A stretch of 45,923 bases of DNA from a candidate division WOR-3 bacterium (lineage in GTDB: Bacteria > Hydrothermota > Tepidihabitantia > Tepidihabitantales > Tepidihabitantaceae): positions 1 to 45,923 of the forward strand of contig JAUWNN010000001.1 in NCBI GenBank assembly GCA_030612625.1. The letters run 5' to 3'. Every line of letters begins with the position of its first letter. Position 1 is the stretch's first letter. Shown piece after piece: positions 269 through 40,141 of this stretch. A model generated the notes under the pieces. That model was given only the letters and a program-made list of their open reading frames with translations, was not told the origin of the DNA and ran no database searches. Position numbers and translations under genes: made by a program.

Positions 269-973
269 CTATTTCGGTTCTTGGGAAGGCGCAGGCTGGC
301 GGGTTGGGGTGATTTCGCAGAACAGGCTTGACTGGTCCACTTCGTGGATTCGGGTTCTGACATCAAGTCCTGCGGTCAAAGACCGGAACCGGTCGGGCCG
401 GACCGCAGTGCCGGTGAAGCCGTCCCGGCACACAATCACGCCATTGCCGGTCCGGTCCGGGTCGAGTTCACCGACAAGCCCGAGTTCGGACTGGAGTCTG
501 AACCACTCCAGACGGACGTCCCAGAACCTGTCCGAGTAGCTGGAGAACAGGGCTGTGCCTTGGGTCCGGGTGACGCGAACAGCTTCCCGGATAAGGTCCT
601 GCTGGTTGACATGGAACGCCGAGATGCCGTTCTGGATGCAGACGACCCGGTCGAAGAACCGGTCGGGAAACCGGAGCTGAACCGCACTCATTTCCAGGAG
701 CAGGCAGTTGGAAAACTGCTGGAGCGTTTTCCGGCCGAGGTTCAGGCTGGCCCGGGAAGTGTCGATACCGACCGCGAGCCGGGCTTTTCGGGCCAGGGGA
801 CCGAGAACCCGGCCGTAGCCGCAGCCGAGTTCAAGGACTTTGTCCTCGGGCCGGATGAAGGTAAGGACATGGTCCAGTTCGGCCTGAAGGTACTGTTTCA
901 CGCGTGGTGGCGCGATGTCGTAGCAGCGCTTCAGCCGCTCAGCAGAAAGAGTCTCACGGTAGTAATCGCCCAT
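269..973 (-). CDS. Class I SAM-dependent methyltransferase
   Basis: 234-aa ORF with SAM-binding motif I (VLELGCGYGR), a downstream GIDTS segment and the post-I region CIQNGISAF. Its last 5 codons and the TAG stop (269-285) lie inside the repeat module cccaagaaccgaaatag, which recurs at 32741 and about 17280. Confidence 0.8.
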   Translation of the reverse strand: MGDYYRETLSAERLKRCYDIAPPRVKQYLQAELDHVLTFIRPEDKVLELGCGYGRVLGPLARKARLAVGIDTSRASLNLGRKTLQQFSNCLLLEMSAVQLRFPDRFFDRVVCIQNGISAFHVNQQDLIREAVRVTRTQGTALFSSYSDRFWDVRLEWFRLQSELGLVGELDPDRTGNGVIVCRDGFTGTAVRPDRFRSLTAGLDVRTRIHEVDQSSLFCEITPTRQPAPSQEPK

Positions 974-1606
974 ACTCAGATTCTCTGCAGCCGGAGGCAG
1001 TCGTCAAACAGAGCAGTTAGCGGAATTCAACCACAAAGGCGCAAAGGGCAAGAAGAGAGGCACAAGTCAAAAGGCAAAGCGCGGATAGCGGTAGGCGGTC
1101 AGCGGAGAGCGGATTGGAACCGCCAAGAACGCCAAGAGGAGAACTAACCACAGATGAACACAGATAAGCACAGATAGAATACTGGACACAGGATACGGGA
1201 TACAGGGTTCTGGAGTGCAACGACTCTGTCGTTGCTATGGAGTGCGGAGGCGCAAGCCACCGCTTTTCCGCCTCTATGGACTGCAACGACTCTACTGTTG
1301 CGTGGCAGCGACATCCCTGTCGCGATTCAGTTGTTGGCTGTCGGCTGTCAGGGTCGTGTCCTTTCGAGCCTGTCGAGAATTCTCTCTTCAGCCGTCAGCG
1401 GTAAGCGGAGCGCGGTTTCTTTCCTGACCGTAGTTCATCCTTCCGCCTTCATGTTTCAGCCTTTCCACGGTAGGCGGTCAGCGGTCGGCTGGTTTGCTTC
1501 CTCGCCCCTTGTGGGAGAGGATTGAGGTGAGGGGGAAGTATCCAACCGCCAAGGTATGTCCTGAGCGAAGTCGAAGGAACGCCAAGAAGAAAACAGATCA
1601 CAAGGG

Positions 1607-1752
1607 CACCAAGACCAGGACAAATCTGGTTGACCCTTATCGAGCCGGGCCCGCAGCGGAGTGGGCTGCGGAGTCAGCAGCGGACCGAGCTGCTCCAGAG
1701 CTGCTGGGAGGTCACTGGGGAGGTGGTTCTCGATTTCAGTTCGGATTTCAGC
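1607..1752 (+). repeat. 146-nt direct repeat, partner at 45778-45923
   Basis: Hand alignment without gaps gives 7 mismatches in 146 nt (about 95% identity). It starts at accaagaccaggacaaa and ends in the ttcag-type 12-nt units. The partner copy is cut by the window end. Confidence 0.85.
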
Positions 1753-2122
1753 TTCAGGTTCAGCACAAAGCAGAGTCTGAACCGGAGTTTCAGAAAGAGC
1801 GTCTTCTGCACAGCAAAGCCGAGAATGAACGAAAGCACGTTCGACAGCTCTGAAGAGAAAAGCAAAGACGGAATCGAAGACAGCAGAAAGCACAGAAGCC
1901 TCTTCAATTCAAGGCACACAAACAAGCCCGGTTCAAAGCTCAGCTTGAACCAGAGCGTGAACGAGAACCTGCCTTACACAATGAAACAGAGCATCAAACT
2001 CAGCACAATTCGCCGCACGACGCGTTACGCAATTCACGCACGACGCATTACGCATAACGCATTACGCCGGAGGGGAGTTCCGGGGACACATTGTTTAACT
2101 CCTACCCATCTAGCTTCGTCTG

Positions 2123-2194
2123 TTCTACCATCTGATGGTAGTGTCCGCTACGCTTCCATTCTGCCATCGGATGGCAGTGTCCGCTGCGCTCCAA
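2123..2194 (+). repeat. Tandem duplication of a 36-nt hairpin unit
   Basis: Unit 1 (2123-2158) carries the hairpin ctaccat-ctg-atggtag and unit 2 (2159-2194) carries ctgccat-cgg-atggcag. The a->g change in the 5' arm is matched by t->c at the pairing position in the 3' arm. Confidence 0.8.
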
Positions 2195-2427
2195 TCGTCT
2201 TTCTTGTCAATCTTCATGGCACAGCGGCGGGTGTGACCGTCGCCGAAGTAGAGGAGGTTGTCAGGCATTTGGCCTCCATCGGACGAGGGTAATACCCTTG
2301 AGAGAACTCAGGGTGTCACCCTTGCGGTTCAGAAGAATGTGATTCATTATAATTCCTACAAGCATAAAATAGCGGCTGGGCTGCGGATGTCAAGGGTCGC
2401 TGAGGTTTTGCCGGATTTACTTCTAAT

Positions 2428-2751
2428 TCTGAAAAAGGCACGAGAAAAGGCATCTGAAAAGGCTTGTCAAAAGGTTTGCGAAAAGGCTCTGAAAAAGGCC
2501 TGCGGAAAGGCATTTGAAAAGGCTTTAGGAAAGGCCTTGAGAAAGGCGTTGGGAAAGACCTGTGAAAAGACCCATCAAAAGGTCTTGAAAAACGCCTGCA
2601 ACAAGGCAGGGACAAAGACATGAGAAAAGGCTTTGAAAAAGCCCGAGCAAAAGGCCGGGAAAAAGACCTTGAAAAAGGCACCTTGAAAGGTGTCTGAAAA
2701 GGCATCGCAAAAGGGTTGGAAAAAGGCTCAGAAAAAGGCCGGTGGAAAGGG
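2428..2751 (+). repeat. Phased 12-nt degenerate tandem array, 27 units, consensus NNNN-GAAAAGGC
   Basis: I parsed 27 consecutive 12-mers with no indel (tctgaaaaaggc, acgagaaaaggc, atctgaaaaggc ... cggtggaaaggg). The 3' 8 nt are conserved and the 5' 4 nt are variable. Confidence 0.9.
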
Positions 2752-2880
2752 AAGACGAAACCGCTCAGGGGACGGGGGAGGCGGAAATGGCGAATTCCGA
2801 ATAACGAATGGCGATTCAAGGGGTTAGGGAGAATTCCGGCTCCGTGGAAATATGACGAATTAGTCATATTGGCGGCGCCA
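2752..2880 (+). repeat. Conserved module flanking the GAAAAGGC-type arrays (partner 21493-21610)
   Basis: The 44-nt core aaatggcgaattccgaataacgaatggcgattcaaggggttagg (2785-2828) matches 21523-21566 with 1 mismatch. In both loci it lies directly 3' of a GAAAAGGC-type array in the same orientation. Confidence 0.85.
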
Positions 2881-3274
2881 CGCGCCAGGCTTTGATAGGT
2901 GATGAGGGAGTCTTTCGCTTCGCAATGACCGGGACTTGGCGGACTTGGCGGTTCAAATCCGCTATCCGCTGACCGCCTACCGCTATCCGCGCTTTGCCTT
3001 TTGACTTCGCCCTCATCTGTGTTCATCCGTGTTTATCTGTGGTTAGTTTTCCTCTTGGCGGCCTTGGCGTTCTTGGCGGTTGAATCCTTCACCCTCACCT
3101 CAATCCTCTCCCTTCAAGGGAGAGGAGGTCTTCGACGGTCCTTGCGGTTTTGCCTTTTGCGATTTGCACTTTGCCTTTTGACTTGTGCCTTTCTTCGTGT
3201 CCTTGGTGCCTTTGTGTTTAGTCTTCTTGGCGGTTTGGCTCCGATTTGAGGTTGCCGGTTGGTGCAATCGGTGC

Positions 3275-3303
3275 TTGACATTATCAAGGCAGGCCTTTAG
3301 AAT
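3275..3303 (+). promoter_or_regulatory. Sigma-70-like promoter of the secreted CBM/T9SS gene
   Basis: TTGACA (3275-3280), 17-nt spacer, TAGAAT (3298-3303). It sits about 25 nt upstream of the GAAAGGAG RBS and ATG 3329. Confidence 0.55.
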
Positions 3304-3328
3304 CAGCGCGGGCGTGAAAGGAGACCAA

Positions 3329-3895
3329 ATGAGAAAGTACATTCTACTCCTGCTGCCGATGTTCCTGGTCATCGGTTTCGGGCAGGAGCTACTCCAGAAC
3401 GGGGATTTCGAGGATTCCCTTGATTTCTGGACAGTAGAACAAAACAACAACCAGGGCAGTTGGGCGGCCAACTGCTCGACCGGCCATCATCCCGACCCTG
3501 ACATGGAAGCGTACGTGTACAAGTACGACCGCTATTTCGCCCGCATCAAGCAGACCGTTGATTTGCCGAGCACCAATGTTGAGTTTTCGGCTTCAGCCAG
3601 GCTCTACGCCAGGCACATCTCGGGCACCGGGTACTATGCTTATGCGGCGATTATTCTTGAGTACGTCAATTCGCACGGGGGACTGCTGGGCCGGACCATG
3701 ATAATCCAGAAGACTCCGAACTGCAATCTGGAGAATACGTCGGTCCTGCATCTTATCGTCGTGACCAGCACCAACTGGGAGGACTACGACTTCATCATCG
3801 CGGATGAGCTTGCCAACCTCCCCGGGGTGAATCCTGCTGAGGTGGCCAAGATAACGGTCGATCTGGAGAGCTACGGCACCGGCCGTAGCGGCTGA
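3329..3895 (+). CDS. Secreted protein, N-terminal part: signal peptide plus most of a CBM4_9/galactose-binding-like jelly-roll domain; ends at an in-frame TGA
   Basis: Start moved to ATG 3329 (RBS gaaaggag), giving MRKYILLLLPMFLVIGFG as signal peptide. LLQNGDFEDSLDFW is a typical CBM-type domain start. The ORF stops at TGA 3893-3895 before the domain's terminal strand. Confidence 0.7.
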   Translation: MRKYILLLLPMFLVIGFGQELLQNGDFEDSLDFWTVEQNNNQGSWAANCSTGHHPDPDMEAYVYKYDRYFARIKQTVDLPSTNVEFSASARLYARHISGTGYYAYAAIILEYVNSHGGLLGRTMIIQKTPNCNLENTSVLHLIVVTSTNWEDYDFIIADELANLPGVNPAEVAKITVDLESYGTGRSG

Positions 3896-15412: not shown

Positions 15413-16371
15413 TGCGCTGGTTATGTCTCAGTCTGATTGCCGCTGGTTGGCTTTTTGGAGACGGCGGGATGGTCGTACCGCCTAACGAGGAAATTGAGGA
15501 GTTCGGCCAGGTGGCGATTGTCAAGTTCCTTGAAGGCCGTGAAGAACTTTCCATCTCGACCAAGTTCATGTCCTATTCAACAGATTTCGCCTGGGTGGTG
15601 CCGTTACCTTCAGAGCCGGTGGTCGATTCGGTAAGCCAAGAGCTGTTTTCCGAACTGCAGCATTTCTGCCGACCTCTGTACCGAAGGAGTGGCGGGTTCG
15701 GCTGTGGGTTCGGGGGGTTATCTGAGGAAGGCCCGGGCGGCAGGTACGGCGATTCGCTCGGGGTTGAAGAAGTCAGCGGCGGCATTATCGGAGACTATTC
15801 GTACCAGGTGCTACTGGCGTTCAATCCCGATACCCTGGAAAGCTATCTGACCGGTCACGGCTATGAGTTACCTTATGGTGCGGCCGCGATTTTCAACCAC
15901 TACCTGGAGAAGAACTGGAACTACTTTGTTGTGGCCCGGGTCAGAGACAGTGTCACAAGGTATGAAACCCGCAATATCGGAATCAGGCTGTCGTTTGATG
16001 CCGATTCGCTGGTTTACCCATTGTACATCAGCCGCATCGGTTCCGTTGCTTCAGACGTGATACTCTATGTGCTTGCCGACCACCGGCAGATGTTTCCGGG
16101 CGCACAACTGAAGTTCTCGGGTAAGGTGAACCAGAACAGCTTCAAGGATTTCCCGGGTTTTGTGGACCGTCGCTGTCATCTGACCAAACTCATGAAGGAG
16201 TACGAGCCTGACCAGATGGAGGACATCTATCTCAAGCAGGCACCGGATGACAAGGACTTTCGTTACATCGAGTACTACGGCGGCGGCTGGCTCGGGATGC
16301 TCGGAAGTTCGGCTGTGTTTGCGGTCGTCCTGTTCCTGCGGCGCAAAAGGAAAAGGCGGTCAGGCCCTTGA
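15409..16371 (+). CDS. DUF2330-like exported protein with C-terminal membrane anchor
   Basis: Signal-like N-terminus MMRWLCLSLIAAGWLFG, then the FAWVVPLPSEP motif I recall from DUF2330. C-terminal TM helix plus a basic tail (RRKRKRRSG). Confidence 0.45.
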   Translation: MMRWLCLSLIAAGWLFGDGGMVVPPNEEIEEFGQVAIVKFLEGREELSISTKFMSYSTDFAWVVPLPSEPVVDSVSQELFSELQHFCRPLYRRSGGFGCGFGGLSEEGPGGRYGDSLGVEEVSGGIIGDYSYQVLLAFNPDTLESYLTGHGYELPYGAAAIFNHYLEKNWNYFVVARVRDSVTRYETRNIGIRLSFDADSLVYPLYISRIGSVASDVILYVLADHRQMFPGAQLKFSGKVNQNSFKDFPGFVDRRCHLTKLMKEYEPDQMEDIYLKQAPDDKDFRYIEYYGGGWLGMLGSSAVFAVVLFLRRKRKRRSGP

Positions 16372-16534
16372 ACCCTGGAATTCTTGAACCCTGTCCGAAC
16401 AGGTTTTCTAATTCCGGTCTGTAGCCGTCAGCCCCTGTCTACTGTATTCTGTCTCCCGTCTTCTATCCTCGGGCTGTCGGCAGTGAGCGGAAACGTGGGT
16501 AACGTCCCCAGGTTTCTTAATTCTCCCGGTCGTG

Positions 16535-17134
16535 CTAGAACTCGTAGGTGAGGATGCCCTTCTTCTCGGTAATCAACTGTCTGGCCTGCATCGAGTCGAT
16601 GATGCGGGCGACGTCCTGGCGCGACAGCTTCTTCTGGAACATGGCGGATATGGCCTGGGCCAGGGTCTTCCGCTTGCGCGGCCGGGACCGCTTCTCCATC
16701 TTGCCCAGCAGCTCGACCACGCGCCGGACGTTCGGGTCCTCGGGCGGCGCGGCAGCAACGGCACCCAACTCCTGCAGGTTGATGATGCGGCGGCACTTCA
16801 GGCCCTTGGCGTTCAGCCCCTTCAACAGCGGGTCGAAGCCCTTGTCCTTTGACAGCACGATGCACTCGGGCCGGGGCGACCGCTCGAACATGCCCCCGAG
16901 AGGGCAGGCGATGAAGAAGTCGAGCGCGTTGCGGCCGTCGCCCGTCACCTTCTGCCACTCGACGCGGCTGCCCAGTTTCTGGGCGCTCGTCACCAGCTCG
17001 ATCGGGACGTTCTTCTGGCTCGCGCCGACGAAGATGACGATGCGGTAGTTGTCATTCAGTCTCGAAAGGTCGACCTGCTGGATGTTCTCGAAGTCAACGA
17101 GCAGCAGTTTCGGCCGGTCTGGTTCTTTTTTCAC
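16535..17134 (-). CDS. NYN/PIN-like (LabA-like) domain protein with atypical codon usage
   Basis: LLLVDFENIQ and IVLSKDKGFDPL resemble the two acidic motifs of LabA/NYN nucleases. GTG start after GAGGA. In about 54 codons I counted, GC3 is about 80%, versus about 58% in the first 45 codons of dnaK. Several shadow ORFs overlap it, consistent with high GC. Confidence 0.5.
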   Translation of the reverse strand: MKKEPDRPKLLLVDFENIQQVDLSRLNDNYRIVIFVGASQKNVPIELVTSAQKLGSRVEWQKVTGDGRNALDFFIACPLGGMFERSPRPECIVLSKDKGFDPLLKGLNAKGLKCRRIINLQELGAVAAAPPEDPNVRRVVELLGKMEKRSRPRKRKTLAQAISAMFQKKLSRQDVARIIDSMQARQLITEKKGILTYEF

Positions 17135-17398
17135 ATATCCTCACATTCGACTGTTACGGGCGTTTCTCAGAATCCTCCGGCAACCGGGATTCGGGACCCG
17201 GCGCCGGTGGTCCTTCACACTGCTACAACCTATATCCAATTCCGGGCAGATGTCAAGCTGGAAGCTGTGACCCAAGAACCGGAATAGAACCATGAAGACA
17301 GGAAACGGCTGAACCGCAGATTACGCAGATTGTACAGATAGGGGTCCGGAAAGGAATCTGCGTTCATCGGTATTCATCTGCGGTTACTTCTGTTTCGT

Positions 17399-17511
17399 GG
17401 ATTGGACGGCGCTTTGCGCCGGGCCGGATAAAAATGGGAATTCCTTTCTTATCAAAGTCTGCCGCGCAGCGGCATCCTTCTTTCGTGGCCAATCCTGTAT
17501 CGGTTTTCGGG
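17399..17511 (+). repeat. 113-nt repeat module, inverted partner at 38857-38970
   Basis: The reverse complement aligns with 38857-38970 at roughly 85-90% identity (cccgaaaaccgata[c/t]aggattggccacgaaagaaggatgccgctgcgcggcagac...ggaattcccatttttatcc...cgccgtccaatcc). Partial copies lie at 128-150, 29117-29162, 32893-32925 and 45683-45706. Confidence 0.85.
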
Positions 17512-17606
17512 CTGTGAGCGGTCAGCGGACGGCGCATCAGCATCTGTACGTCTTTCTTGTCAATCTTCATGGCGGCGGGAGTGTAGGTAACGTCCCCAGC
17601 AACCGC

Positions 17607-17894
17607 CGAGACCAAGATTTAGACAAAGGCCGACGCAAAGGCTCGGACAAAGACCAACGGAAAGGCTGAGACAAAGACCGGCACAAAGACCAGGACCAAG
17701 GTCGAGACAAAGGCCGAAACATAGACCGAGACAAACGCCGAGACAAAGGCCAACACAAAGACTGAAACAAAGACCAGGACAAAGGCCGGCACGAAGACCC
17801 GGACAAAGACCGGGACTAAGACCGAGACAAAGGCCAACACGAAGGCTGAAACAAACTCCGGCACAAAGGCTGAAACAAAGACCGGCGCAAACGC
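17607..17894 (+). repeat. Phased 12-nt degenerate tandem array, 24 units, consensus NNNR-ACAAAGRC
   Basis: 24 consecutive 12-mers with no indel (cgagaccaagat, ttagacaaaggc, cgacgcaaaggc ... cggcgcaaacgc). Confidence 0.9.
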
Positions 17895-18528
17895 TCCCCT
17901 AAACGGCCCCTGGGAGACCCACCCCGAGATTTCTTACGGCTGCTTTGCCCATATCGGGATATAACTCTGTGGAAGGATGGAATGGAAGCGAAGCAGATGG
18001 CGCAACTGTTCCTCTTGTCACCCCGCTCTGCTCTGAGCATAGCCTGCCCTGTGCCAGAGGGGCAGGTGCCGTCCGACGGCTCACCTGTCGAAAGGTGCCA
18101 TTCGATGGCTCAAGGGTCTCTCTGCCCAGCCGTCGGCTGCAAGCTGTCAGCGGCGGGCGAGGGTTGTCATTGCGAGGCCGCAAGGCCCGTGGCAATCCGA
18201 CGCCCTGCGTCGCCCTGAGTTTGACGAAGGGTCTCTCCTGCTGTCGGCTGTCAGCGGTCGGCAGTTCGCGGTAAGCGGTGGGCGGAAATGGGTATTATGT
18301 CCCCTTATCTTCCCTTAATATCCCATGTCCCCTTAATATCCCTGGTCGTCTTTCGTGTCAATCTCCATGGCAGCGGGTGGGAGATGCGTATTGTGTCGCC
18401 TTATCTCCAAAGGAGCATCGTTATCGGCTATTGACAAGAGGCTTTTCATAGAAGCGTCACCGTTTGTTCTCCAGCGGCTTAAGCGCCCGGGGTGGAAATA
18501 GGTGGTTGTCCCTAATTAGCCCTATGTA

Positions 18529-20106
18529 TTATCTTAGCAGGCATAACCGTGTCTGGTATGTCTTGCCATGCGCGTCCTGCCAACATGCGTGATAGACGCC
18601 GCTGGGCAGTACTTCTCCGGTTTGCCTTCGGCTGTTCCACGACGCGTGCCCTGAGGCGTCAGTCACTGCTTTCGTCACCAAACGGCCTGCAATGTCGCGG
18701 ATCTCGACAGCTCTTCCACCGTTGGCCGGAATACAGAGGTTGAAGCAGCCCCGACTCGGGTTGGGTCGCACGACCGCCGCGGGCATCGTCACCTGACTCT
18801 CTGCTTCGATGCCAACACTGGGGTTGGGATACTTGATGACTGTCTGGGCCCCGTAGCTCGTGCCGCCAACATAGATACAGCCGGAATCATCCAGAAGGAC
18901 TCCGTGAGGGGCACCGAGGTCGAAAGGTCGTCTGCCGTGGAAATGACCCCAAAGGACCTGCCCTCCTGAGTCCAGTTGAGCAGTAAGCCACCCAGAGCTG
19001 TCGTCTGGCGTAGAGCACAAGCCGGAGATGTAGCTGCGTCCCTGTCCGTCTGCGGTTATTCTTCTGGGCTCTGCTATCCCGGAATGCAACCCAAACACGG
19101 TGGTCCACAACGATTCTCCGCTAGGTGAGTACTTGACTACCGCAAAATCTCGGTCCTGGCCGCCACTGTTGTACCAGATGCATCCGCACACGAGGATGTT
19201 GTCATTGCCATCGATTGCAAGTCCATAGGCTCCGTCATGGCTGTGGGCTATCCAGTCGAACCTCCTCACCCAGAGTTCCTGTCCTGCGCTGTTATACTTG
19301 ATCGTCACCCAGTCACCCTCTGTACTACCTCCATCACTTTCTCCAACTACGATGACATTGTTTCGTGAGTCCAGTCTGACCTGCAGCGCCTGGTCATTAT
19401 CATGACCCGGGCCGTCGTAGCGTTGCACCCACTTTTGTGTTCCGGCAGAGTCGAACTTGAGCGTGACACAGTCCTGCCTACCAATTACTCCGTCGCTTAC
19501 TCCGCACACGTAGACATTGCGGTGCCCATCGACCACTATGTCCCAAGGACGGTCCGAATCGTCAAGCGGTCCGTTGTAGCTGGAGGTCCAGTCGATTGTC
19601 CCGGACGTATCGAAACGGAAGACTGTGATGTCGTAGTCGTTGCCACTAGTTTCGCCTGCGATGTACAACTTGCCGCGTCCGTCCAGCGCCAATGCTACGC
19701 CTCTGCATGCGCCAGAATCCGGAGTTATGTATCGGGATACCCACCTGACGTTCCCCAGAGAGTCCAGCTTCAGTGTTAGCATGAACCGATGCCTCGGCTG
19801 ATCCGTGTGTCCGGTGATATATGAGTTGCCGAGCGCGTCTATCGCCACATCGTAGCAGTATTCTCGTCCGTGTTCGGGCGTGTCGTACACCGTTTCCCAG
19901 AGCCTGGTGCCATCGGTGCCGTACTTGACCGCCACAATGTCTTCGGGAATGCCTCTTGAGGGGCCAGCGATGCAGACCCGGCCGACGCTGTCCATCGCCA
20001 TCGCAAACCCATGAGCTGAGCCACGTGACCTGACCCAGAGTTGGCCTTCGGCGATTGCCATGCATGCCAAACAGAATCCAATTGCTCCGACTACCGAACG
20101 TAACAT
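18529..20106 (-). CDS. Secreted SBBP-type beta-propeller repeat protein with T9SS C-terminal sorting domain
   Basis: Start moved to ATG 20106 (RBS GGGAGG), giving the signal peptide MLRSVVGAIGFCLACMAIAEG. Repeated Y(D/N)GPxxxxDxxxxVxxDxxGNxYVxGxS units. C-terminus: VVRPNPSRGCF...GVYHACWQ...TRLCLLR. Confidence 0.75.
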   Translation of the reverse strand: MLRSVVGAIGFCLACMAIAEGQLWVRSRGSAHGFAMAMDSVGRVCIAGPSRGIPEDIVAVKYGTDGTRLWETVYDTPEHGREYCYDVAIDALGNSYITGHTDQPRHRFMLTLKLDSLGNVRWVSRYITPDSGACRGVALALDGRGKLYIAGETSGNDYDITVFRFDTSGTIDWTSSYNGPLDDSDRPWDIVVDGHRNVYVCGVSDGVIGRQDCVTLKFDSAGTQKWVQRYDGPGHDNDQALQVRLDSRNNVIVVGESDGGSTEGDWVTIKYNSAGQELWVRRFDWIAHSHDGAYGLAIDGNDNILVCGCIWYNSGGQDRDFAVVKYSPSGESLWTTVFGLHSGIAEPRRITADGQGRSYISGLCSTPDDSSGWLTAQLDSGGQVLWGHFHGRRPFDLGAPHGVLLDDSGCIYVGGTSYGAQTVIKYPNPSVGIEAESQVTMPAAVVRPNPSRGCFNLCIPANGGRAVEIRDIAGRLVTKAVTDASGHASWNSRRQTGEVLPSGVYHACWQDAHGKTYQTRLCLLR

Positions 20107-21301: not shown

Positions 21302-21340
21302 TACACCCGTCAGCATAAGAGAAAGACGGCTTGACGTCAA

Positions 21341-21740
21341 CCAAAGGATGAGCCAAAGGTTTTGAAAGCAGAAGTATCGGTGCGAGAACGGGCCTCAAAA
21401 CGGGCTTTGAAAAAGGTATCTGAAAAAGGTATTTGACAAGGTATCGCAGAAGGGCTGAAAAAGGCCTGGGAAAAGGCCGCTGAAAAGCGAAGGCAGAACC
21501 TTCTGGGGAACGGGGGAGGGGTAAATGGCGAATTCCGAATAACGAATGGCGAATCAAGGGGTTAGGAGGAATTTGGGGCTTGATGGGATATGACTAACTG
21601 GTATTGTCGGTCCATTCTCGTGCAGGCGGCGAGGAACCGGAGAAGTCAGAGTTCAGAAGTCAGAGACCAGAATGCAGAAAGCCCGGGCCGGAGTTCTGAC
21701 TTCTAGTGTCTGCATTCTGACTTCTGCATTGTCCTGTCTT
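21341..21740. repeat. Repeat block: short irregular GAAAAGG-type array, conserved flank module and a long imperfect inverted repeat
   Basis: An irregular 11-13-nt array lies at about 21340-21492 (tttgaaaaaggt, atctgaaaaaggt, atttgacaaggt, ctgggaaaaggc ...). The flank core is at 21523-21566. The inverted repeat cagaagtcaga...gaatgcaga / tctgcattctgacttctg spans 21641-21730. Confidence 0.75.
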
Positions 21741-21902
21741 GCCTGGTGCCACGGCTTAACTGGCTGGAAATCAATACGTTATCTATGTGCTGGCAAGAGA
21801 CTTACTCGGATGCCGAATGTCGAACACCAAGTGATGATTTGTGCCAGGTGATGAATCTGGAATCGGAGACCGGCTTAAGACCGTCTAAGACTATGATAGC
21901 GA

Positions 21903-22520
21903 ATGGGTAAGACCAGAAAAGGCCCTGTTACAAAGCTCAAGCATCGAGTCAGCGAGCTTGAGCAGGAATGTGTCGATTATAAGGACAAGTATGTGCGGTC
22001 TTTGGCTGAGTTTGAGAACTATCGCCGGCGCACCCAGCGTGAGTTTGAGACGGTGCGCCAGACCGCTATCGAGGGTCTGCTGGCTGAGCTTGTGTCGGTG
22101 CTGGATAACTTCGACCGGGCAGTGGCAACAACGCACTACGCATTACGCCATACGCAACACGCCGCGAAGGCCGGGACCACGCCGCAGGACAAGGACGCCG
22201 CAATGGTAGGAGAAACCACAGAGGCACAGAGAACACCGAGTCAGAGACTGGACAAGGTGCATGAGGGCATCGTGCTCATCAGGCGGCAGTTGCAGGACGC
22301 TCTTGCCCGGCACGGGTTGGTGGAGTTCAGTTGTCTGGGTGAGGAGTTCGACCCACGCAGAGCTGAAGCGGTGAGTTTTGTCCACACTGACGAGCATCAG
22401 GCCGACACGGTAGTGGAAGAGCATTGCAAGGGATACTGCTGCGAGGACAGGGTAATCAGGCCGGCAAGAGTCGTGGTGGCCAAACCCAGGGCCAAGGCAC
22501 GAAGTGCGACTGACGAATGA
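21903..22520 (+). CDS. grpE: Nucleotide exchange factor GrpE, with a lineage-specific in-frame insert
   Basis: KYVRSLAEFENYRRR, LLAELVSVLDNFDRA, EGIVLIRRQL, FDPRRAEAV. About 46 aa separate DNFDRAV from EGI, versus about 14 in the E. coli and B. subtilis GrpE sequences as I recall them. Confidence 0.9.
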   Translation: MGKTRKGPVTKLKHRVSELEQECVDYKDKYVRSLAEFENYRRRTQREFETVRQTAIEGLLAELVSVLDNFDRAVATTHYALRHTQHAAKAGTTPQDKDAAMVGETTEAQRTPSQRLDKVHEGIVLIRRQLQDALARHGLVEFSCLGEEFDPRRAEAVSFVHTDEHQADTVVEEHCKGYCCEDRVIRPARVVVAKPRAKARSATDE

Positions 22521-22598
22521 CGACTTTCGAATGCCGGATTTCTTACTTTCGACACTCGCAATTCGACATTCGGGCTTTACGCAATAAGGAGGATTAAC

Positions 22599-24512
22599 AT
22601 GGCAAAGGTTATTGGTATTGACCTTGGAACGACATTTTCATGTGTGGCGGTGATGGAGCGGGGCCAGCCGGTGGTGATACCGAATCCTGAGGGCGGCCGC
22701 ACCACGCCATCAGTAGTGGCTCTGGGTAAGGAGCGGCTGGTCGGAACACTTGCCAGACGGCAGGCGGTAATCAACCCGGAGACTACGGTCTATTCCATCA
22801 AGCGGTTCATGGGCCGGCGATTCTCTGAGATTGGTGAGGAAACCAAGAAGATGCCTTTTGAGGTGGTGCCGGCTGACAACGGCGATGCCTGGATTGAGGT
22901 GGGAGACAAGAAGTACTCGCCACCCGAGATTTCGGCGATGGTTCTCCAGTACCTCAAGAAGGCGGCCGAGGCGTATCTGGGCGAAGCGATCACCAAGGCG
23001 GTCATTACTGTGCCCGCTTACTTCAATGACTCGCAGCGTCAGGCCACAAAGGATGCGGGCAGGATTGCGGGTCTGGAAGTGCTCCGGATTATCAACGAGC
23101 CGACTGCAGCATCGCTTGCCTACGGTCTTGACAAGAAGAAGTCGGAGCGGATAGCGATTTTCGACCTCGGGGGCGGCACTTTCGATATTTCGATTCTGGA
23201 AATAGGCGAAGGGGTTTTTGAGGTGAAGTCCACCAACGGCGATACCCATCTGGGGGGCGACGACTTTGACCAGGAAGTCATGGACTGGGTGATTGAGGAG
23301 TTCCAGCGCGAGAACGGGACAGACCTGTCCAAGGACAAGACCGCAATTCAGCGCATCAAAGAGGCGGCCGAGAAGGCGAAGTGTGAACTCTCGACATCAA
23401 TGGAGACAGCAATCAATCTGCCGTTCATTCATGCCGATGATAAGAAGGGCCCCTTGCATCTTGACTTGCGGCTGACCCGGTCCAAGCTTGAATTTCTGGT
23501 GGATGGTCTGGTCCAGAGGATTCAGGGTCCGTTAAAGCAGGCGCTGACTGATGCGAAGCTGACACCCCAGGACATAGATGAAGTCATCCTGGTCGGTGGA
23601 CAGACACGGATGCCCAAGGTGCAGCAGGTGGTGCGGGACTTCTTCGGCAAGGAGCCGCATAAAGGCATCAACCCGGATGAGGTGGTGGCGGTTGGGGCAG
23701 CGATTCAGGGCGCAGTACTGGCAGGTCAGGTCAAGGACGTGGTGCTGCTGGATGTTACCCCGCTCTCATTGGGGATTGAGACCCTGGGTGGAGTGTTAAC
23801 GAGAGTTATCGAGCGCAACACTACTATCCCGACCCGCAAGAGCCAGGTTTTCACTACGGCCGAGGACACCCAGCCCGCGGTTACGGTTCATGTCCTTCAG
23901 GGAGAACGGGAGATGGCCGCGGATAACAGAACACTTGGCCGGTTTGAGCTTACCGGAATTCCGCCCGCGCCCAGGGGAATTCCCCAGATTGATGTGACGT
24001 TTGACATTGATGCGGACGGGATTCTCCATGTTACTGCCAAGGACAAGGCTACGGCCAAGGAGCAGAGCATCAGGATTACCGCTTCTTCGGGCCTGTCCAA
24101 GGAGGAGATAGACCGGAAAGTCAACGAGGCTCAAGAGCACGCTGCCGACGACCGAAAACATCGGGAACTGGTTGACAGCCGCAACAGAGCTGATACGCTT
24201 ATCTACCAGACCGAGAAGACGCTCAAGGAGTTCGGCGACAAGGTGGCTGCCGACGTGAAGAAGAGTATAGAGGAGGCGACAAGCAGTCTCCGTTCAGCGA
24301 TGAAAGGCGATGACAAGGCAGCCATCGATACCGCAATTGAGCAGTTGCAGAAGGTCAGTTACAAGCTGGCCGAAGAGATGTACCGTCAGAAACAGACCGA
24401 AACCACAGATGCGACCGGTGCCGGTGCTAACCAGTCCGGTCCGAAGAAAGAGGAGCCGGGCAAGAAGGTTGATGCCGACTATACGGTCATTGATGAGGAA
24501 GACAAGAAGTAA
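22599..24512 (+). CDS. dnaK: Molecular chaperone DnaK (Hsp70)
   Basis: [36 protein letters not shown]; RBS AAGGAGG. Confidence 0.97.
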
Positions 24513-32637: not shown

Positions 32638-32977
32638 GCCGGCTGGGGCTGATTTCCGATACTCATGACAACCTTGGCAAAGTCAGGGTTGCGGTGGAAC
32701 TGTTCAACCGGCTCAAACCGGATATGGTTCTGCACTGTCCCAAGAACCGAAATAGAGCCACGAAGACACGAAGAACACGAAACGGAGATAGGGTGACACC
32801 CTGCGCAGCGCAAGGGTGTCACCCCTACTGCGCAGGGTGTCACCCTTACAAGTTCTGGATCCGGGAGGTTCCGTCTTTCGTGGATTTCGTGATTTCGTGG
32901 CCAAACGTATATCGGTTTTCGGGACTGTGGCGCTGCTGGATACCGACACCGGCATGGTTGAGTTCTTCGACTTGTAG
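32634..32977 (+). pseudogene. Relic of a YfcE/MJ0936-type metallophosphoesterase whose core is replaced by a repeat element
   Basis: The N-terminal 35 codons read [35 protein letters not shown] (DxH motif; ATGA-coupled to rpoD), then run into the repeat at 32736. In a different frame, 32921-32977 reads GTVALLDTDTGMVEFFDL*, a typical C-terminus of this family. The GD, GNHD/E, His and GHTH motifs are missing. Confidence 0.65.
32736..32920. repeat. Mosaic repeat element inside the phosphoesterase relic
   Basis: Contains cccaagaaccgaaatagagccacgaagacacgaagaacacgaaac (also inverted at 240-290), the near-perfect 16-bp hairpin gggtgacaccctgcgc-a-gcgcaagggtgtcaccc (32791-32824) and tttcgtggatttcgtgatttcgtggccaaac. 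Confidence 0.85.
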
Positions 32978-35643: not shown

Positions 35644-35662
35644 AACCCTGGAACCCTTTTTC
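35603..35662 (+). repeat. Module B repeat (ggttcaaggggccaagggttc...cctggaaccc), possibly acting as the hflX terminator
   Basis: The sequence ggattcaaggggccaagggttcaaccctggaaccctagaaccctggaaccc is followed by ttttt. gggttc/gaaccc can pair. Confidence 0.7.
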
Positions 35663-35853: not shown

Positions 35854-35870
35854 TTTACCTCCTGTTACAA

Positions 35871-35925
35871 AAAGGGTTCAAGGGGCCAAGGGTTCGAGGG
35901 TTCAAGTCCTGGAACCCTTTCTTTG
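35871..35925 (+). repeat. Module B repeat copy
   Basis: aaagggttcaaggggccaagggttcgagggttcaagtcctggaaccctttc. Confidence 0.8.
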
Positions 35926-37077: not shown

Positions 37078-37190
37078 GGTCTAGGGTTTTAGGGTTCCAG
37101 GACTCGAATCCTTGGCCCTTGAACTCTTCTTTTTGCCGTCCACTTGGACCCTTGGCCCCTTGGCCCCTTGAACCCTTTTCTTGGTTGGTG
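37078..37190 (-). repeat. Module B repeat copy (extended), overlapping the rpmE 3' end
   Basis: The reverse complement reads aagggttcaaggggccaaggggccaagggtccaagtgg...gagttcaagggccaaggattcgagtcctggaaccctaaaaccctag. Confidence 0.8.
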
Positions 37191-38656: not shown

Positions 38657-38815
38657 ATACGCTCCTTTAGGGATTGTTTCTCGCCGGTCCCTTCGGCGTG
38701 GATTGCGACAACTGTGTGCTATAGCAACTGTTCAGTCTTCAATTAGGTCTTCAAGACTTCTCCGAGGGAACGAAAGATCAAACCACGTTGTTCAGCTTGT
38801 GTCTTACTGTGCCCA

Positions 38816-38843
38816 AGTATAGGAAATCCAATACCGGTGTCAA
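38816..38843 (-). promoter_or_regulatory. Sigma-70-like promoter of rho (leader of about 150 nt)
   Basis: Minus strand: TTGACA (38843-38838), 16-nt spacer, TATACT (38821-38816). Confidence 0.5.
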
Positions 38844-38856
38844 GCTTATTACGTAT

Positions 38857-39085
38857 CCCGAAAACCGATATAGGATTGGCCACGAAAGAAGGATGCCGCT
38901 GCGCGGCAGACTTCGAAATGAAAAGGAATTCCCATTTTTATCCGACCTCGGGCTCAGCGCCGTCCAATCCCCGAAAGATGAACAGAAGAGGGTTCAAGGG
39001 GCCAAGGGTTCAAGTCTAGAATCCTGGAACCCTGGAACCCTGGAACCCTAGAATCCTTTTTCTGGAATCCTGGAACTCCTTTCCC
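38857..39085. repeat. Composite repeat: inverted copy of 17399-17511 followed by a module B copy
   Basis: 38857-38970 aligns with the reverse complement of 17399-17511. 38988-39085 reads gggttcaaggggccaagggttcaagtctagaatcctggaaccctggaaccctggaaccctagaatcc... Confidence 0.85.
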
Positions 39086-39841: not shown

Positions 39842-40141
39842 CCAGGTGACTTCCCATCTCAACCCGGATTTCATCTCAGGGCTCAGGACCGAAGTCAGAA
39901 TCCGGCTCAGCTTCCGGCTCAAAACGGATGTCACTTCGGGTATCAGCCGGGATTTCAGATGCCTGGTCATTCGGCAGTTCAGAATCGGGTTCATTCTCGG
40001 TTTCAGCCCGGGCTTCATTTCCGAAGTCAGAACCCGGTTCAGCTCCGAGTTCAACTCCAGATTCAGCTCCGGGCTCAGCCTCGGATTTAGCTTCCAGCTC
40101 AGCCCCGAAGTCAGAATCCGGCTCAGCTTCGGAAGTACGTT
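39842..40141 (+). repeat. Phased 12-nt degenerate tandem array, 25 units, consensus CSG-NN-TCAG-NNN
   Basis: 25 consecutive 12-mers with no indel (ccaggtgacttc ... cgaagtcagaat, ccggctcagctt ... cggaagtacgtt). The reverse complement, NNN-CTGA-NN-CSG, shares a CTGA...GG skeleton with the GAAAAGGC arrays. A short version lies at 1722-1800 and at 45893-45923. Confidence 0.9.

What the first reader, a model, noticed from the sequence alone, without database searches (positions are those of the whole stretch)
2428..2751. Phased 12-nt degenerate arrays (24-27 units, no indels); the GAAAAGGC-type arrays share a leader-like flank
Three large arrays keep an exact 12-nt register although only about 8 of the 12 positions are conserved: 2428-2751 (27 units, NNNN-GAAAAGGC), 17607-17894 (24 units, NNNR-ACAAAGRC) and 39842-40141 (25 units, CSG-NN-TCAG-NNN, whose reverse complement contains CTGA...GG). 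A shorter, irregular copy lies at about 21340-21492. The two GAAAAGGC-type arrays are followed by the same module; its 44-nt core at 2785-2828 matches 21523-21566 with 1 mismatch. Arrays 1 and 2 are both preceded by tctttcttgtcaatcttcatggc. The layout of a conserved flank plus a phased array recalls a leader plus array, but a 12-nt period with no spacers excludes CRISPR. Most reading frames stay open across the arrays; for example the minus frame of array 1 gives xPFx tetrapeptide repeats in the 236-aa ORF 2316..3026. This is a property of the unit and not evidence of coding. Three hypotheses fit: a periodic binding-site array for a DNA- or RNA-binding protein, including a sponge-RNA role analogous in principle to CsrB-type RNAs; a cryptic tetrapeptide-repeat protein; or pure slippage products.
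Basis: seen in the sequence. Interest (0 to 1): 0.8.

Follow-up and report, generated by a model that had tools for sequence, protein, structure and literature searches.

The report
Phased 12-nt non-coding site arrays
A deep-branching WOR-3 bacterium carries several roughly 300-bp non-coding arrays in which a 7-8-base core recurs every 12 bases with scrambled spacers and no length errors, which looks like a selected docking lattice for a nucleic-acid-binding protein, but the binder and the function are not known.

Summary
Arrays at 2428-2751 (27 units), 17607-17894 (24) and 39842-40141 (25) keep an exact 12-nt register (lag-12 autocorrelation z = 10-14). I found a fourth, weaker array at 1648-2007. 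They lie in unusually long intergenic regions of a chromosome from a deep WOR-3 lineage. These regions are full of other short tandem arrays, and the nearest relatives lack them.

The arrays are not coding. Conservation shows no codon periodicity. Degenerate codon positions are invariant while whole codons vary. The open xPFx frame uses disfavoured codons and has no true homologues.

They are not neutrally decaying slippage products either. In array 1 the spacers are randomised (24 of 27 distinct) while core positions are 96-100% conserved, with no indels. The short paralogue at 21340-21495 does show indels.

The "shared leader" is one segmental duplication that also copied about seven array units with their spacers.

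Best reading (confidence 0.4): these are selected, phased binding-site arrays, most likely read on duplex DNA. Arrays 1 and 4 sit directly upstream of sigma-70-like promoters. Main rival (0.25): pyrimidine-rich transcripts offering in-phase G-Y-C-U-U-U sites to OB-fold proteins such as Rho or cold-shock proteins. No binder was identified and transcription could not be tested.

The parts
2428..2751 (.). Array 1: 27 units of 12 nt. The + strand reads NNNN-RAAAAGGC and the - strand reads GCCTTTTY-NNNN.
   Evidence: Core positions 7-10 are 96-100% conserved. 24 of 27 spacers are distinct. There are no indels.
2752..2835 (.). Flank module shared with 21496-21573. It contains four AATNNCG heptamers.
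   Evidence: It belongs to the 167-bp segmental duplication 2669-2835 / 21407-21573.
2366..2393 (-). Sigma-70-like promoter (TTGACA-16-TATTTT), 35 nt downstream of array 1 in minus sense.
   Evidence: It is one of only 7 hits at 10/12 or better in the window. Four of the other six lie 26-160 nt upstream of the start of a gene on the same strand.
2125..2268 (-). 47-aa ORF preceded by GGAGG. Together with the terminator-like hairpin at 1927-1954 it suggests an unannotated transcription unit driven by the promoter next to array 1.
   Evidence: and the sequence. This is inferred, not shown.
2196..2220 (.). In minus sense it reads GCCATGAAGATTGACAAGAAAGACG.
   Evidence: It matches 17549-17573 exactly.
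17607..17894 (.). Array 2: 24 units of 12 nt. The + strand reads YRRV-ACAAAGRC and the - strand reads GYCTTTGT-NNNN. T makes up only 4% of the + strand.
17549..17573 (.). Second copy of the dispersed 25-mer, 31-34 nt from array 2.
21340..21495 (.). Array 4: a short, irregular paralogue of the end of array 1, with mutated cores and register breaks.
   Evidence: Against array 1 the cores differ at 5 of 47 positions, the spacers at 9 of 32, and there are 3 indels.
21496..21573 (.). Second copy of the flank module.
21312..21340 (-). Promoter-like TTGACG-17-TATGCT that abuts array 4, just before the ATG at 21301 of the 366-aa gene.
   Evidence: The match is 9 of 12, weaker than the one next to array 1.
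39842..40141 (.). Array 3: 25 units of 12 nt. The + strand reads CSR-NN-TCA-NNNN. It starts 56 nt after the stop codon of the WD40-Roc-TIR gene on the - strand.
   Evidence: The minus-strand RNA is predicted to be structured (z = -4.9).
1648..2007 (.). Array 5: about 30 very degenerate 12-nt units (AA....AG....), still in one register.
   Evidence: Lag-12 z = 8.4. Mismatches are spread evenly over the unit (p = 0.53).
3148..3192 (+). Heptamer array (TTTTGCC) x6.4. It carries the same core, GCCTTTT, at a 7-nt period, about 80-130 bp upstream of the promoter at 3275-3303. A similar array lies at 209-242.

Best explanation
The arrays are non-coding and under selection. Each is a lattice of about 24-27 equivalent binding sites: a 7-8-nt contacted core plus a 4-5-nt spacer that is not contacted, at a fixed 12-nt pitch. 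A sequence-specific protein would bind one protomer per unit and assemble cooperatively.

The favoured variant is that the lattice is read on duplex DNA, where a one-base slip changes the rotational setting. The complex would then act on the adjacent promoter as an activator, a silencer or an insulator between neighbouring transcription units.

Shown: the periodicity, the nucleotide-level constraint on core and phase, the intergenic position, and the promoter-like sites next to arrays 1 and 4.
Inferred: that a protein binds, that it binds DNA rather than RNA, and the effect on transcription.
For: - **Core against spacer.** In array 1, positions 7-10 show 2 changes in 108 cells. The five spacer positions are as different between units as column composition predicts (identity 0.36 at every lag; 24 of 27 spacers distinct).
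- **Phase.** There are no indels in 76 units across the three arrays. The short paralogue, array 4, differs from array 1 by 3 indels per 14 substitutions, and the register breaks are on the array 4 side.
- **Not protein-coding.** Conservation is equal at all three codon positions in every frame of array 1. In the only fully open frame, Pro is always CCT (19% of Pro codons in the window's genes) and Phe is mostly TTT (31%). GC1/2/3 of that ORF is .51/.52/.46, against about .60/.42/.67 in the genes. No homologues were found.
- **Position.** Array 1 ends 35 nt upstream of TTGACA-16-TATTTT, and array 4 abuts TTGACG-17-TATGCT. Consensus-type promoters look meaningful in this window: 4 of the other 6 hits at 10/12 or better lie 26-160 nt upstream of a same-strand gene start.
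- **Same core elsewhere.** GCCTTTT also occurs as 7-nt arrays upstream of the promoters at 3275 and 1007, in the same orientation relative to the promoter.
- **No RNA-gene signature.** Arrays 1 and 2 are not more structured than unit-order or column shuffles on either strand. No promoter-terminator pair brackets them.
- **Similar lengths.** The arrays are 288, 300 and 324 bp long.
Against: - No binder was identified.
- No closely related genome is available, so conservation between strains could not be tested. The nearest GrpE is 54-56% identical, and those relatives have no arrays.
- A 12-bp pitch is not the B-DNA helical repeat.
- The three arrays have different cores, so several binders, or one tolerant binder, would be needed.
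- Arrays 2 and 3 have no convincing promoter next to them. They lie downstream of same-strand genes, so they are probably transcribed.
- The strong purine/pyrimidine strand asymmetry, with only 4% T on the + strand of array 2 even in its spacers, is easier to explain for a single-stranded ligand.
- Array 5 keeps its register even though its differences are spread evenly over the unit. This weakens the use of 'no indels' as proof of selection.
- The promoter scan is a consensus match only.
Confidence: 0.4

Rival explanations
1. The arrays work as single-stranded RNA. The minus-sense transcripts of arrays 1, 2 and 4 present 8-27 in-phase G-Y-C-U-U-U(K) sites on an unstructured, pyrimidine-rich RNA. 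These sites would load or titrate an OB-fold or cold-shock-type protein. One candidate is Rho, which reads one YC dimer per protomer, so the array would act as a very strong rut site that terminates or insulates transcription. The other candidates are cold-shock proteins or S1, for which the array would be a chaperone platform or a sponge.
For: - The minus-strand core of array 2, GYCTTTGT, equals the B. subtilis CspB preferred heptamer GTCTTTG/T (PMC1904285).
- An in-phase YC is present in 25 of 27 units of array 1 and 21 of 24 units of array 2 on the minus strand.
- Rho motifs are modelled as (YC)N9-13, and 12-13 nt has been proposed to span adjacent sites on Rho (PMC6144790). YC plus N10 gives 12 nt.
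- The minus strand of array 1 is 70% pyrimidine, with C 30% against G 16%.
- Arrays 1 and 2 are unstructured.
- Array 2 lies 635 nt downstream of the SBBP gene on the same strand, with no intrinsic terminator predicted in between.
- The strand asymmetry extends into the spacers of array 2.
Against: - The motif matches were found after the fact. A conserved 7-mer core will usually contain a YC on one strand or the other, and regularly spaced YC dimers are common even in random sequence (PMC13613805).
- A flexible RNA ligand tolerates one nucleotide more or less (linkers of 9-13 nt), so the exact register over 27 units is not explained.
- Rho needs only six sites.
- No promoter is predicted that would transcribe array 1 or array 4 in minus sense. 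Instead, promoters lie just downstream of them.
- In array 2 C roughly equals G. Array 3 is G-rich and structured in the sense of its upstream gene.
Confidence: 0.25
2. The arrays have no function for the organism. They are minisatellite-like products of replication slippage in a lineage that tolerates and multiplies short tandem repeats. The contrast between core and spacer would come from the history of amplification or from mutational bias.
For: - The window has 69 tandem-repeat rows in 46 kb, almost all intergenic. WOR-3 relatives have 0-2 rows per 20 kb, and their orthologous regions have no arrays.
- The intergenic regions are unusually long, 1.4-2.3 kb.
- Array 2 re-uses spacers (16 distinct of 24) and scores best at a 36-nt period.
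- Array 5 looks like an evenly decayed array.
- Array 4 is decaying.
- Genomes rich in long simple-sequence repeats are known (PMC4679880).
Against: - Uniform decay cannot randomise five positions while four positions keep 106 of 108 cells unchanged.
- Neighbouring units do not share spacers, so there has been no recent amplification.
- The same core positions do mutate in array 4, so they are not mutational cold spots.
- At the indel-to-substitution ratio seen between arrays 1 and 4, more than 10 indels would be expected in array 1, and none is seen.
Confidence: 0.15
3. The arrays encode cryptic tetrapeptide-repeat proteins, for example xPFx from ORF 2316-3026 on the minus strand or an acidic xEPx repeat from 39876-40163. 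Selection against frameshifts would then explain the exact register.
For: - One frame of array 1 and two frames each of arrays 2 and 3 have no stop codon.
- Avoiding frameshifts is the commonest reason for DNA with a 12-nt period to lack indels.
- Proteins with TPFx or NPFx tetrapeptide repeats exist.
Against: - There is no codon periodicity in the conservation.
- Four-fold degenerate positions are the most conserved: the T of CCT in array 1, and the T before GA in array 3, where Ala, Ser, Asn, Val and Phe codons all end in T.
- The codons used are disfavoured, and GC1/2/3 is not gene-like.
- The same frame is broken in the paralogue, array 4, and there it overlaps a real gene start.
- Two word-indexed searches of 5.8 billion proteins found nothing.
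- The 89 phmmer hits are matches between low-complexity repeats in unrelated, mostly long proteins.
- The surrounding arrays have 7-, 8- and 10-nt periods, which cannot be coding.
Confidence: 0.05
4. Array 2 is a repeat-RNA antitoxin, as in type III toxin-antitoxin systems, for the PIN-domain protein encoded 473 nt downstream on the same strand.
For: - A tandem array lies upstream of a predicted RNase gene (PIN7, E = 3.9e-22) on the same strand.
- The tandem-repeat finder scores array 2 best at a 36-nt period. That is the unit length of ToxI (the ToxI figure is from my own knowledge).
Against: - The units are degenerate, only 12 nt long and unstructured.
- The nuclease is not of the ToxN, CptN or TenpN type and has no PADLOC match.
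- No promoter and no terminator bracket the array.
- Arrays 1, 3 and 4 have no nuclease gene next to them.
Confidence: 0.03

Closest known systems
Iteron-type centromere and operator arrays of plasmids and phages. Examples: ParR-parC (10-11 bp), TubR-tubC (direct repeats in blocks upstream of tubR; PMC6009700), omega-repressor heptads, and the 8-bp TAGTARRR arrays of pAD1. Details other than those for TubR are from my own knowledge.
   Same: - Head-to-tail short direct repeats in intergenic DNA next to promoters.
- One protomer per repeat, with cooperative filament or ring assembly.
- Exact spacing matters.
- A conserved core with less conserved positions beside it.
   Different: - These arrays are on a chromosome carrying housekeeping genes (grpE, dnaK, rpoD, rho).
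- There is no partition or replication gene next to them.
- At least three core types occur within 46 kb.
- At 24-27 units they are longer than most such arrays.
- The spacers are fully randomised.
- Binding has not been shown.
Direct-repeat boxes of OmpR/PhoB-type response regulators, such as pho boxes with 7 conserved plus 4 variable bp at an 11-bp pitch (from my own knowledge).
   Same: - The same unit anatomy: a core of about 7 bp plus a spacer of about 4 bp, in head-to-tail tandem.
- The same position upstream of, or overlapping, the -35 element.
   Different: - The pitch is 12 bp, not 10-11 bp.
- There are 24-27 units instead of 2-10.
- No regulator gene lies nearby.
Rho utilisation (rut) sites, modelled as (YC)N9-13 repeats on C>G, unstructured RNA (PMC6144790).
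   Same: - A 12-nt pitch equals YC plus N10.
- The minus strand of array 1 is pyrimidine-rich, has more C than G, and is unstructured.
   Different: - Natural rut sites are irregular, about 80 nt long, and have no conserved 7-8-nt core.
- Exact phasing is not required for them.
- Arrays 2 and 3 do not have the C>G composition on the relevant strand.
Cold-shock-protein binding heptamer GTCTTTG/T (B. subtilis CspB; PMC1904285).
   Same: The minus-strand cores GYCTTTGT (array 2) and GCCTTTTY (array 1) match it at 6-7 of 7 positions.
   Different: - Cold-shock proteins are monomers that cover 6-7 nt, so a 12-nt lattice is not expected.
- The match was found after the fact.
- No cold-shock gene is present in the window.
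Intergenic short tandem repeats of bacteria: long simple-sequence repeats, cyanobacterial STRR heptamers, and TAACTGA repeats of Beggiatoaceae (PMC4679880).
   Same: - Lineage-specific abundance of 5-11-nt tandem arrays in intergenic DNA.
- Unknown function, with proposed protein binding.
- The window's many 7-10-nt arrays fit this class.
   Different: - Those arrays are near-perfect copies of the whole unit and are usually 2-6 copies long.
- Here the unit is 12 nt, with a fixed core and randomised spacers, over 24-27 units.
CsrB/RsmZ-type protein-sponge RNAs (from my own knowledge).
   Same: Many copies of a short motif within about 300 nt could titrate a binder.
   Different: - Sponge RNAs present their motifs in hairpin loops at irregular spacing, and they have their own promoter and terminator.
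- Arrays 1 and 2 are unstructured, exactly phased, and have no bracketing promoter and terminator.

Membership tests
CRISPR array | Identical repeats of about 24-48 nt, separated by unique spacers of about 26-72 nt. | tested here: not met
   The units are 12 nt: a core of 7-8 nt plus a spacer of 4-5 nt.
CRISPR array | cas genes nearby. | tested here: not met
   Pfam scans of the window's larger ORFs found no Cas domains.
Tetrapeptide-repeat protein gene | Conservation follows codon structure, with the third position most variable and synonymous variation in conserved residues. | tested here: not met
   Information is equal at all three codon positions. The four-fold degenerate third position of CCT (Pro) never varies, and TTT (Phe) is used in 20 of 27 units.
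Tetrapeptide-repeat protein gene | Homologous proteins exist, and composition and codon usage are gene-like. | tested here: not met
   Searches gave no hits. Searches gave only low-complexity matches. GC1/2/3 is .51/.52/.46.
Plasmid/phage iteron or centromere array | Tandem direct repeats of fixed pitch in intergenic DNA next to a promoter. | tested here: met
   Met for arrays 1 and 4. Not evident for arrays 2 and 3.
Plasmid/phage iteron or centromere array | An adjacent gene for the cognate binding protein (Rep, ParR, ParG, TubR or omega) and a motor, on a mobile replicon. | tested here: not met
   The neighbours are a methyltransferase, T9SS cargo proteins, a PIN7 protein, an SBBP protein, grpE-dnaK and rho. 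The context is chromosomal. BLAST against plasmids gave nothing relevant.
Plasmid/phage iteron or centromere array | Specific cooperative binding of the protein to the repeats. | not testable with these tools
   This needs EMSA, footprinting or DAP-seq.
Rho utilisation site | C>G, G-poor, unstructured RNA with YC dimers spaced 9-13 nt apart, on the transcribed strand. | tested here: inconclusive
   The minus strand of array 1 fits: C 30%, G 16%, YC in phase in 25 of 27 units, and no excess structure. In array 2 C roughly equals G. Array 3 fails in the sense of its upstream gene. Spaced YC dimers are also common by chance.
Rho utilisation site | Rho-dependent 3' ends or read-through when Rho is inhibited. 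| not testable with these tools
   No transcriptome data are available.
CsrB-type sponge RNA | A discrete sRNA gene with its own promoter and terminator, presenting its motifs in hairpin loops. | tested here: not met
   No bracketing promoter or terminator was found. Folding of arrays 1 and 2 is not different from unit-order or column shuffles. There is no Rfam match.
Type III toxin-antitoxin repeat antitoxin | Near-identical structured repeats of 34-47 nt, followed by a terminator and a ToxN-, CptN- or TenpN-type toxin gene. | tested here: not met
   The units are degenerate and 12 nt long. The downstream gene encodes a PIN7 protein, lies 473 nt away, and has no PADLOC match.
Long simple-sequence repeats / STRR-type intergenic tandem repeats | Tandem copies of a short unit in which the whole unit is repeated with little position-specific degeneracy. 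| tested here: not met
   The 12-nt arrays have randomised spacers and fixed cores. The window's 7-10-nt arrays do fit this class.

The most novel reading that the evidence does not exclude
The arrays would be a previously undescribed class of chromosomal element: about 300-nt lattices with one site every 12 nt that template a protein polymer or ring stack. Candidates are a DNA-coating regulator that underwinds DNA to about 12 bp per turn, or an OB-fold RNA-binding protein such as Rho loaded in register. Different core 'addresses' would serve different loci. The element would set the boundaries or the activity of neighbouring transcription units in a WOR-3 lineage whose intergenic DNA is built from short sequence words.
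Probability: 0.3. Interest if true: 0.8.

Novelty: new variant of a known kind. Interest (0 to 1): 0.6.

Why it matters
If the arrays are real binding lattices, they would show that bacterial chromosomes, and not only plasmids, can carry long, exactly phased site arrays with randomised spacers. That design keeps many identical sites stable against recombination. It also implies an abundant binder that polymerises with a 12-nt footprint.

The arrays would give a directly testable handle on how an uncultivated phylum organises promoters, terminators or insulation. Synthetic arrays could be used for pull-downs, Rho or cold-shock-protein assays, and reporter constructs.

The window also shows a genome whose intergenic DNA is assembled from short tandem words. 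Some of these already have a clear role: the 8-mer arrays form terminator hairpins. That makes this lineage a useful case for asking how repeats become regulatory parts.

Tried and rejected
**Comparative searches**
- Exact-protein look-ups for genes flanking the arrays (the 516-aa protein, rho, PIN7, the 188-aa protein, the 70-aa protein) found nothing.
- Only GrpE was on record, on a 1.7-kb Logan contig identical to the window. Strain comparison was therefore impossible.
- The one GTDB relative of the 516-aa neighbour (70% identity) and three WOR-3 loci with the same grpE-dnaK-dnaJ gene order have no arrays.

**Metagenome scan**
- A scan for AAAGRC x4 at a 12-nt pitch returned at least 120 loci.
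- They are near-perfect tandem repeats, 6-nt repeats, coding lysine-rich repeats, or eukaryotic DNA. The longest is 20 units, and it is coding.
- None is related to the window.

**Protein searches**
- Searches with the xPFx ORF and with a concatenation of 19 intergenic ORFs found no hits.
- phmmer against 1.84 billion representatives gave only low-complexity matches.

**Other tests**
- Rfam and tRNA scans found nothing in the arrays.
- BLAST against plasmids found nothing relevant.
- I tested whether neighbouring spacers pair so that cores sit in hairpin loops, using unit-order and column shuffles. This was not supported for arrays 1 and 2 (one search timed out).
- The word GYCTTT is only modestly enriched outside the arrays.
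- A search for a cold-shock-domain gene in the window found only the OB-fold motif of Rho itself.
- Literature searches found no description of such arrays.
- I considered DNA-curvature modelling but did not run it, because the parameters would have come from memory.
Full report
**1. What is there**

When each is cut into 12-nt units it stays in one register from end to end.

- **Array 1 (2428-2751, 27 units).** The consensus is CTGGAAAAAGGC. Positions 7-10 (AAAG) are unchanged in 106 of 108 cells. Positions 6, 11 and 12 are moderately conserved. Positions 1-5 carry 0.17-0.69 bit.
- **Array 2 (17607-17894, 24 units).** The unit reads YRRV-ACAAAGRC.
- **Array 3 (39842-40141, 25 units).** It conserves TCA at positions 6-8, and more weakly CSR at positions 1-3.

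The distribution of mismatches over the 12 positions is far from uniform (chi-square p = 1.5e-9, 7e-5 and 8e-4). Lag-12 autocorrelation exceeds shuffles by 14.3, 12.4 and 10.5 standard deviations and drops sharply at lags 11 and 13. AAAGRC-N6-AAAGRC-N6-AAAGRC occurs 14 times, always on the + strand, against none in 100 shuffles. Arrays 1 and 2 therefore share a core and an orientation.

One is a much more degenerate 12-nt stretch at 1648-2007 (about 30 units, AA....AG...., z = 8.4). The other is a 95% identical copy of the stretch at its start (1608-1754), lying at the very end of the window at 45777-45923.

**2. Context**

The window is chromosomal. Its genes include:

- grpE-dnaK-dnaJ-rsmE-S21-mutS2-dnaG-rpoD, in the same order as in WOR-3 genomes
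- rho, rpmE, a class-1 release factor, hflX, RNase E/G and nrdD
- T9SS cargo proteins, a PIN7 protein and a WD40-Roc-TIR protein

The best GrpE relatives are annotated as candidate division WOR-3 but are only 54-56% identical, so this is a deep lineage without close sequenced relatives.

The arrays lie in very long intergenic regions: about 973-3329, 17134-18529 and 38656-40197. A shorter region lies at 21340-21903. These regions are mosaics of many other short tandem arrays with 7-, 8-, 9-, 10- and 14-nt units. The window has 69 tandem-repeat rows in 46 kb, plus dispersed modules.

Three syntenic WOR-3 loci have 0-2 such rows per 20 kb and short spacers between genes. The only GTDB relative of the neighbouring 516-aa protein (70% identity) has two rows in 12 kb and no array. 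The repeat-rich intergenic DNA is therefore specific to this lineage.

**3. Not protein-coding**

- Mean information is the same at all three codon positions in every frame of array 1 (0.99-1.08 bit). There is no wobble signature.
- In the only frame with no stop (minus strand, xPFx, ORF 2316-3026), the four-fold degenerate third base of the Pro codon is one of the two invariant positions of the unit.
- The codons used in that frame are disfavoured in this genome. CCT is 19% of Pro codons and TTT is 31% of Phe codons.
- In the + strand 'EKAx' frame, the two-fold degenerate positions never vary and there are two stops.
- In the acidic frame of array 3, Ala, Ser, Asn, Val, Phe and Pro codons all end in T. 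That T belongs to the conserved trinucleotide.
- GC1/2/3 of ORF 2316-3026 is .51/.52/.46, against about .60/.42/.67 for genes in the window.
- The same frame is broken in the paralogous short array and overlaps a real gene start there.
- Two searches of 5.8 billion proteins, one with the ORF and one with 19 concatenated intergenic ORFs, found nothing. They did not even return the window's own ORFs, so these ORFs are not on record in that collection.
- phmmer against 1.84 billion representatives gave 89 weak hits. These align only repeat to repeat with unrelated TPFx/NPFx low-complexity proteins.

**4. Not a neutrally decaying slippage product**

In array 1, 24 of 27 five-base spacers are distinct. 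Spacer identity between units is 0.29-0.43 at every lag from 1 to 9. That is what column composition alone predicts (0.36). There is no higher-order repeat and no sign of recent amplification. Array 3 behaves the same way. Array 2 re-uses some spacers (16 distinct of 24).

Randomised spacers next to nearly invariant cores cannot come from uniform decay. An internal control exists. The last seven or so units of array 1, together with the flank, were duplicated as a block to 21407-21573 (81.7% identity, spacers included). Between the two copies:

- the cores differ at 5 of 47 positions
- the spacers differ at 9 of 32 positions
- there are 3 indels, with the register breaks on the side of the short copy

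Core positions can therefore mutate, and indels do arise in this sequence. Yet 76 units in the three long arrays have none. At that indel-to-substitution ratio, more than ten indels would be expected in array 1 alone.

One caveat applies. Array 5 also keeps its register although its differences are spread evenly (p = 0.53). Absence of indels is therefore not proof of selection on its own.

**5. What reads the lattice**

*Duplex DNA (favoured).*

- A scan for consensus-type promoters at 10/12 or better gives only seven hits on both strands of the window. Apart from the hit next to array 1, four lie 26-160 nt upstream of the start of a gene on the same strand: T9SS-a, rho, rpmE and the gene at 45552. 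Such hits appear meaningful here.
- One hit, TTGACA-16-TATTTT at 2393-2366 on the minus strand, lies 35 nt beyond the end of array 1.
- That hit is followed by a GGAGG-ATG 47-aa ORF (2268-2125) and a terminator-like hairpin with an 11-bp stem (1954-1927).
- Array 4 abuts a weaker hit (21340-21312), just before the ATG at 21301.
- The same core, GCCTTTT, is also present as 7-nt arrays upstream of the promoters at 3275 and 1007, in the same orientation relative to the promoter.
- No promoter-terminator pair brackets an array.
- Arrays 1 and 2 fold no better than versions with shuffled unit order or shuffled columns, on either strand.
- On rigid duplex DNA a 1-bp slip changes the rotational setting of every following site. 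This would explain the exact register.
- The anatomy (a 7-8-bp core, a 4-5-bp spacer, head-to-tail units next to a promoter) is that of iteron/centromere arrays and of response-regulator direct-repeat boxes.

*RNA or single-stranded DNA (main rival).*

- On the minus strand the cores read G-Y-C-U-U-U-(K). Array 2's GYCTTTGT equals the preferred heptamer of B. subtilis CspB, GTCTTTG/T (PMC1904285).
- YC is the dinucleotide read by each Rho protomer. Rho motifs are modelled as (YC)N9-13, and 12-13 nt has been proposed to span adjacent sites (PMC6144790).
- The minus strand of array 1 is 70% pyrimidine, with C 30% against G 16%. Array 2 has only 4% T on its + strand, even in the spacers. That asymmetry is more natural for a single-stranded ligand.
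- Array 2 lies downstream of the SBBP gene on the same strand, with no intrinsic terminator predicted in between.
- Against this reading: the matches were found after the fact, and a conserved 7-mer usually contains a YC on one strand or the other.
- Spaced YC dimers are also pervasive in random sequence (PMC13613805).
- Flexible RNA tolerates one nucleotide more or less, and Rho needs only six sites.
- Arrays 1 and 4 have predicted promoters downstream of them, not upstream.

*Array 3 may be a different case.* It starts 56 nt after the stop of the WD40-Roc-TIR gene. Its minus-sense RNA is predicted to be clearly structured: z = -4.9 against dinucleotide shuffles, and -2.1 and -3.9 against the unit-order and column nulls.

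**6. Comparison with known systems**

- **CRISPR, CsrB-type sponge RNAs, type III antitoxin arrays and tetrapeptide-repeat genes** each fail a defining feature that I tested (see the membership table).
- **Iteron/centromere arrays** share the architecture. They differ in replicon type and in having an adjacent gene for the binding protein.
- **Rut sites** share the pitch and, for array 1, the composition. They do not have a conserved core or exact phasing.
- **Long simple-sequence repeats and TAACTGA/STRR-type repeats** (PMC4679880) describe the window's 7-10-nt arrays well. They do not describe a 12-nt unit with a fixed core and randomised spacers over 24-27 units.
- **Metagenomes.** A scan for the same core at the same pitch returned only near-perfect repeats, 6-nt repeats, coding lysine-rich repeats or eukaryotic DNA. 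The longest is 20 units, and it is coding.

**7. Verdict**

The arrays are real and non-coding, and they carry a strong signature of constraint on core and phase. They are best explained as phased binding-site lattices.

| Reading | Confidence |
|---|---|
| Phased binding-site lattice, with the duplex-DNA, promoter-proximal variant favoured | 0.4 |
| Single-stranded RNA read by OB-fold proteins (Rho, cold-shock proteins) | 0.25 |
| Neutral satellite-like DNA | 0.15 |
| Cryptic tetrapeptide-repeat protein | 0.05 |
| Type III antitoxin-like RNA (array 2 only) | 0.03 |

The remainder is left for mechanisms I have not thought of. The evidence comes from one contig. There are no sister genomes, no transcript data and no identified binder. 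The function remains inferred.

Noticed in passing
35607-35660, 35868-35918, 37080-37180, 38985-39080, 16365-16392: Tandem 8-mers (AAGGGTTC / GAACCCTG and variants) occur as adjacent inverted blocks. These form long hairpins followed by T-runs, which makes them intrinsic, partly bidirectional, terminators at the ends of hflX, the ferredoxin gene, the release-factor gene, rpmE and the small membrane-protein gene. The ORFs of hflX and rpmE run into these hairpins, which gives '...RVQGAKG...' tails.
   Followed up: partly
1648-2007 and 45777-45923: A further, very degenerate 12-nt periodic stretch of about 30 units lies upstream of array 1. The window ends inside a 95% identical copy of the stretch at its start (1608-1754), so the contig probably broke at this repeat.
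   Followed up: partly
38-265, 1032-1210, 2935-3216: Three copies of a mosaic of short arrays (ATCCGCT, TCATCTGTGT, CTTGGCGGC and TTTTGCC types) lie in alternating orientation. They flank the methyltransferase gene and the 1.7-kb non-coding block that holds arrays 5 and 1. Two of the copies sit just upstream of sigma-70-like promoters (1007-980 on the minus strand, 3275-3303 on the plus strand).
   Followed up: partly
2128-2146, 2170-2186, 18062-18080, 18088-18106: A recurrent palindrome of the type TGCCATC-N-GATGGCA occurs in pairs near arrays 1 and 2. The copies differ by changes on both arms that keep the symmetry. It could be an operator or a hairpin element.
   Followed up: no
2305-2325 and 32790-32846: The palindromic motif AAGGGTGTCACCCTT occurs downstream of the putative promoter next to array 1, and as a self-complementary 57-bp block after rpoD.
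   Followed up: no
17393-17511 and 38857-38976 (inverted): A 120-bp dispersed module, 91% identical between copies, lies next to array 2 and directly upstream of the rho promoter (38843-38816). It contains a GC-rich hairpin, TGCCGCGCAGCGGCA.
   Followed up: no
40197-42989 (-): A 930-aa protein with WD40 repeats, a Roc/Ras-like GTPase domain and a C-terminal TIR domain. It has weak PADLOC matches to TIR defence proteins. The 126-nt tandem repeat at 42517-42854 corresponds to its WD40 blades.
   Followed up: partly
35972-36922 (-): The release-factor ORF matches the PCRF profile only from profile position 28 onward. The N-terminus may lie in another frame, as in the programmed +1 frameshift of prfB.
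   Followed up: no
18160-18200: The element GTCATTGCGAGGCCGCAAGGCCCGTGGCAATCC resembles a hairpin word that, from memory, is common in intergenic DNA of many environmental bacteria. Its function is unknown.
   Followed up: no
L122 (Logan, SRR12623518): An independent short assembly from run SRR12623518 is 100% identical to window 21675-23366. It ends at the repeat block upstream of grpE. This run is a source of reads for population analysis of the arrays.
   Followed up: partly
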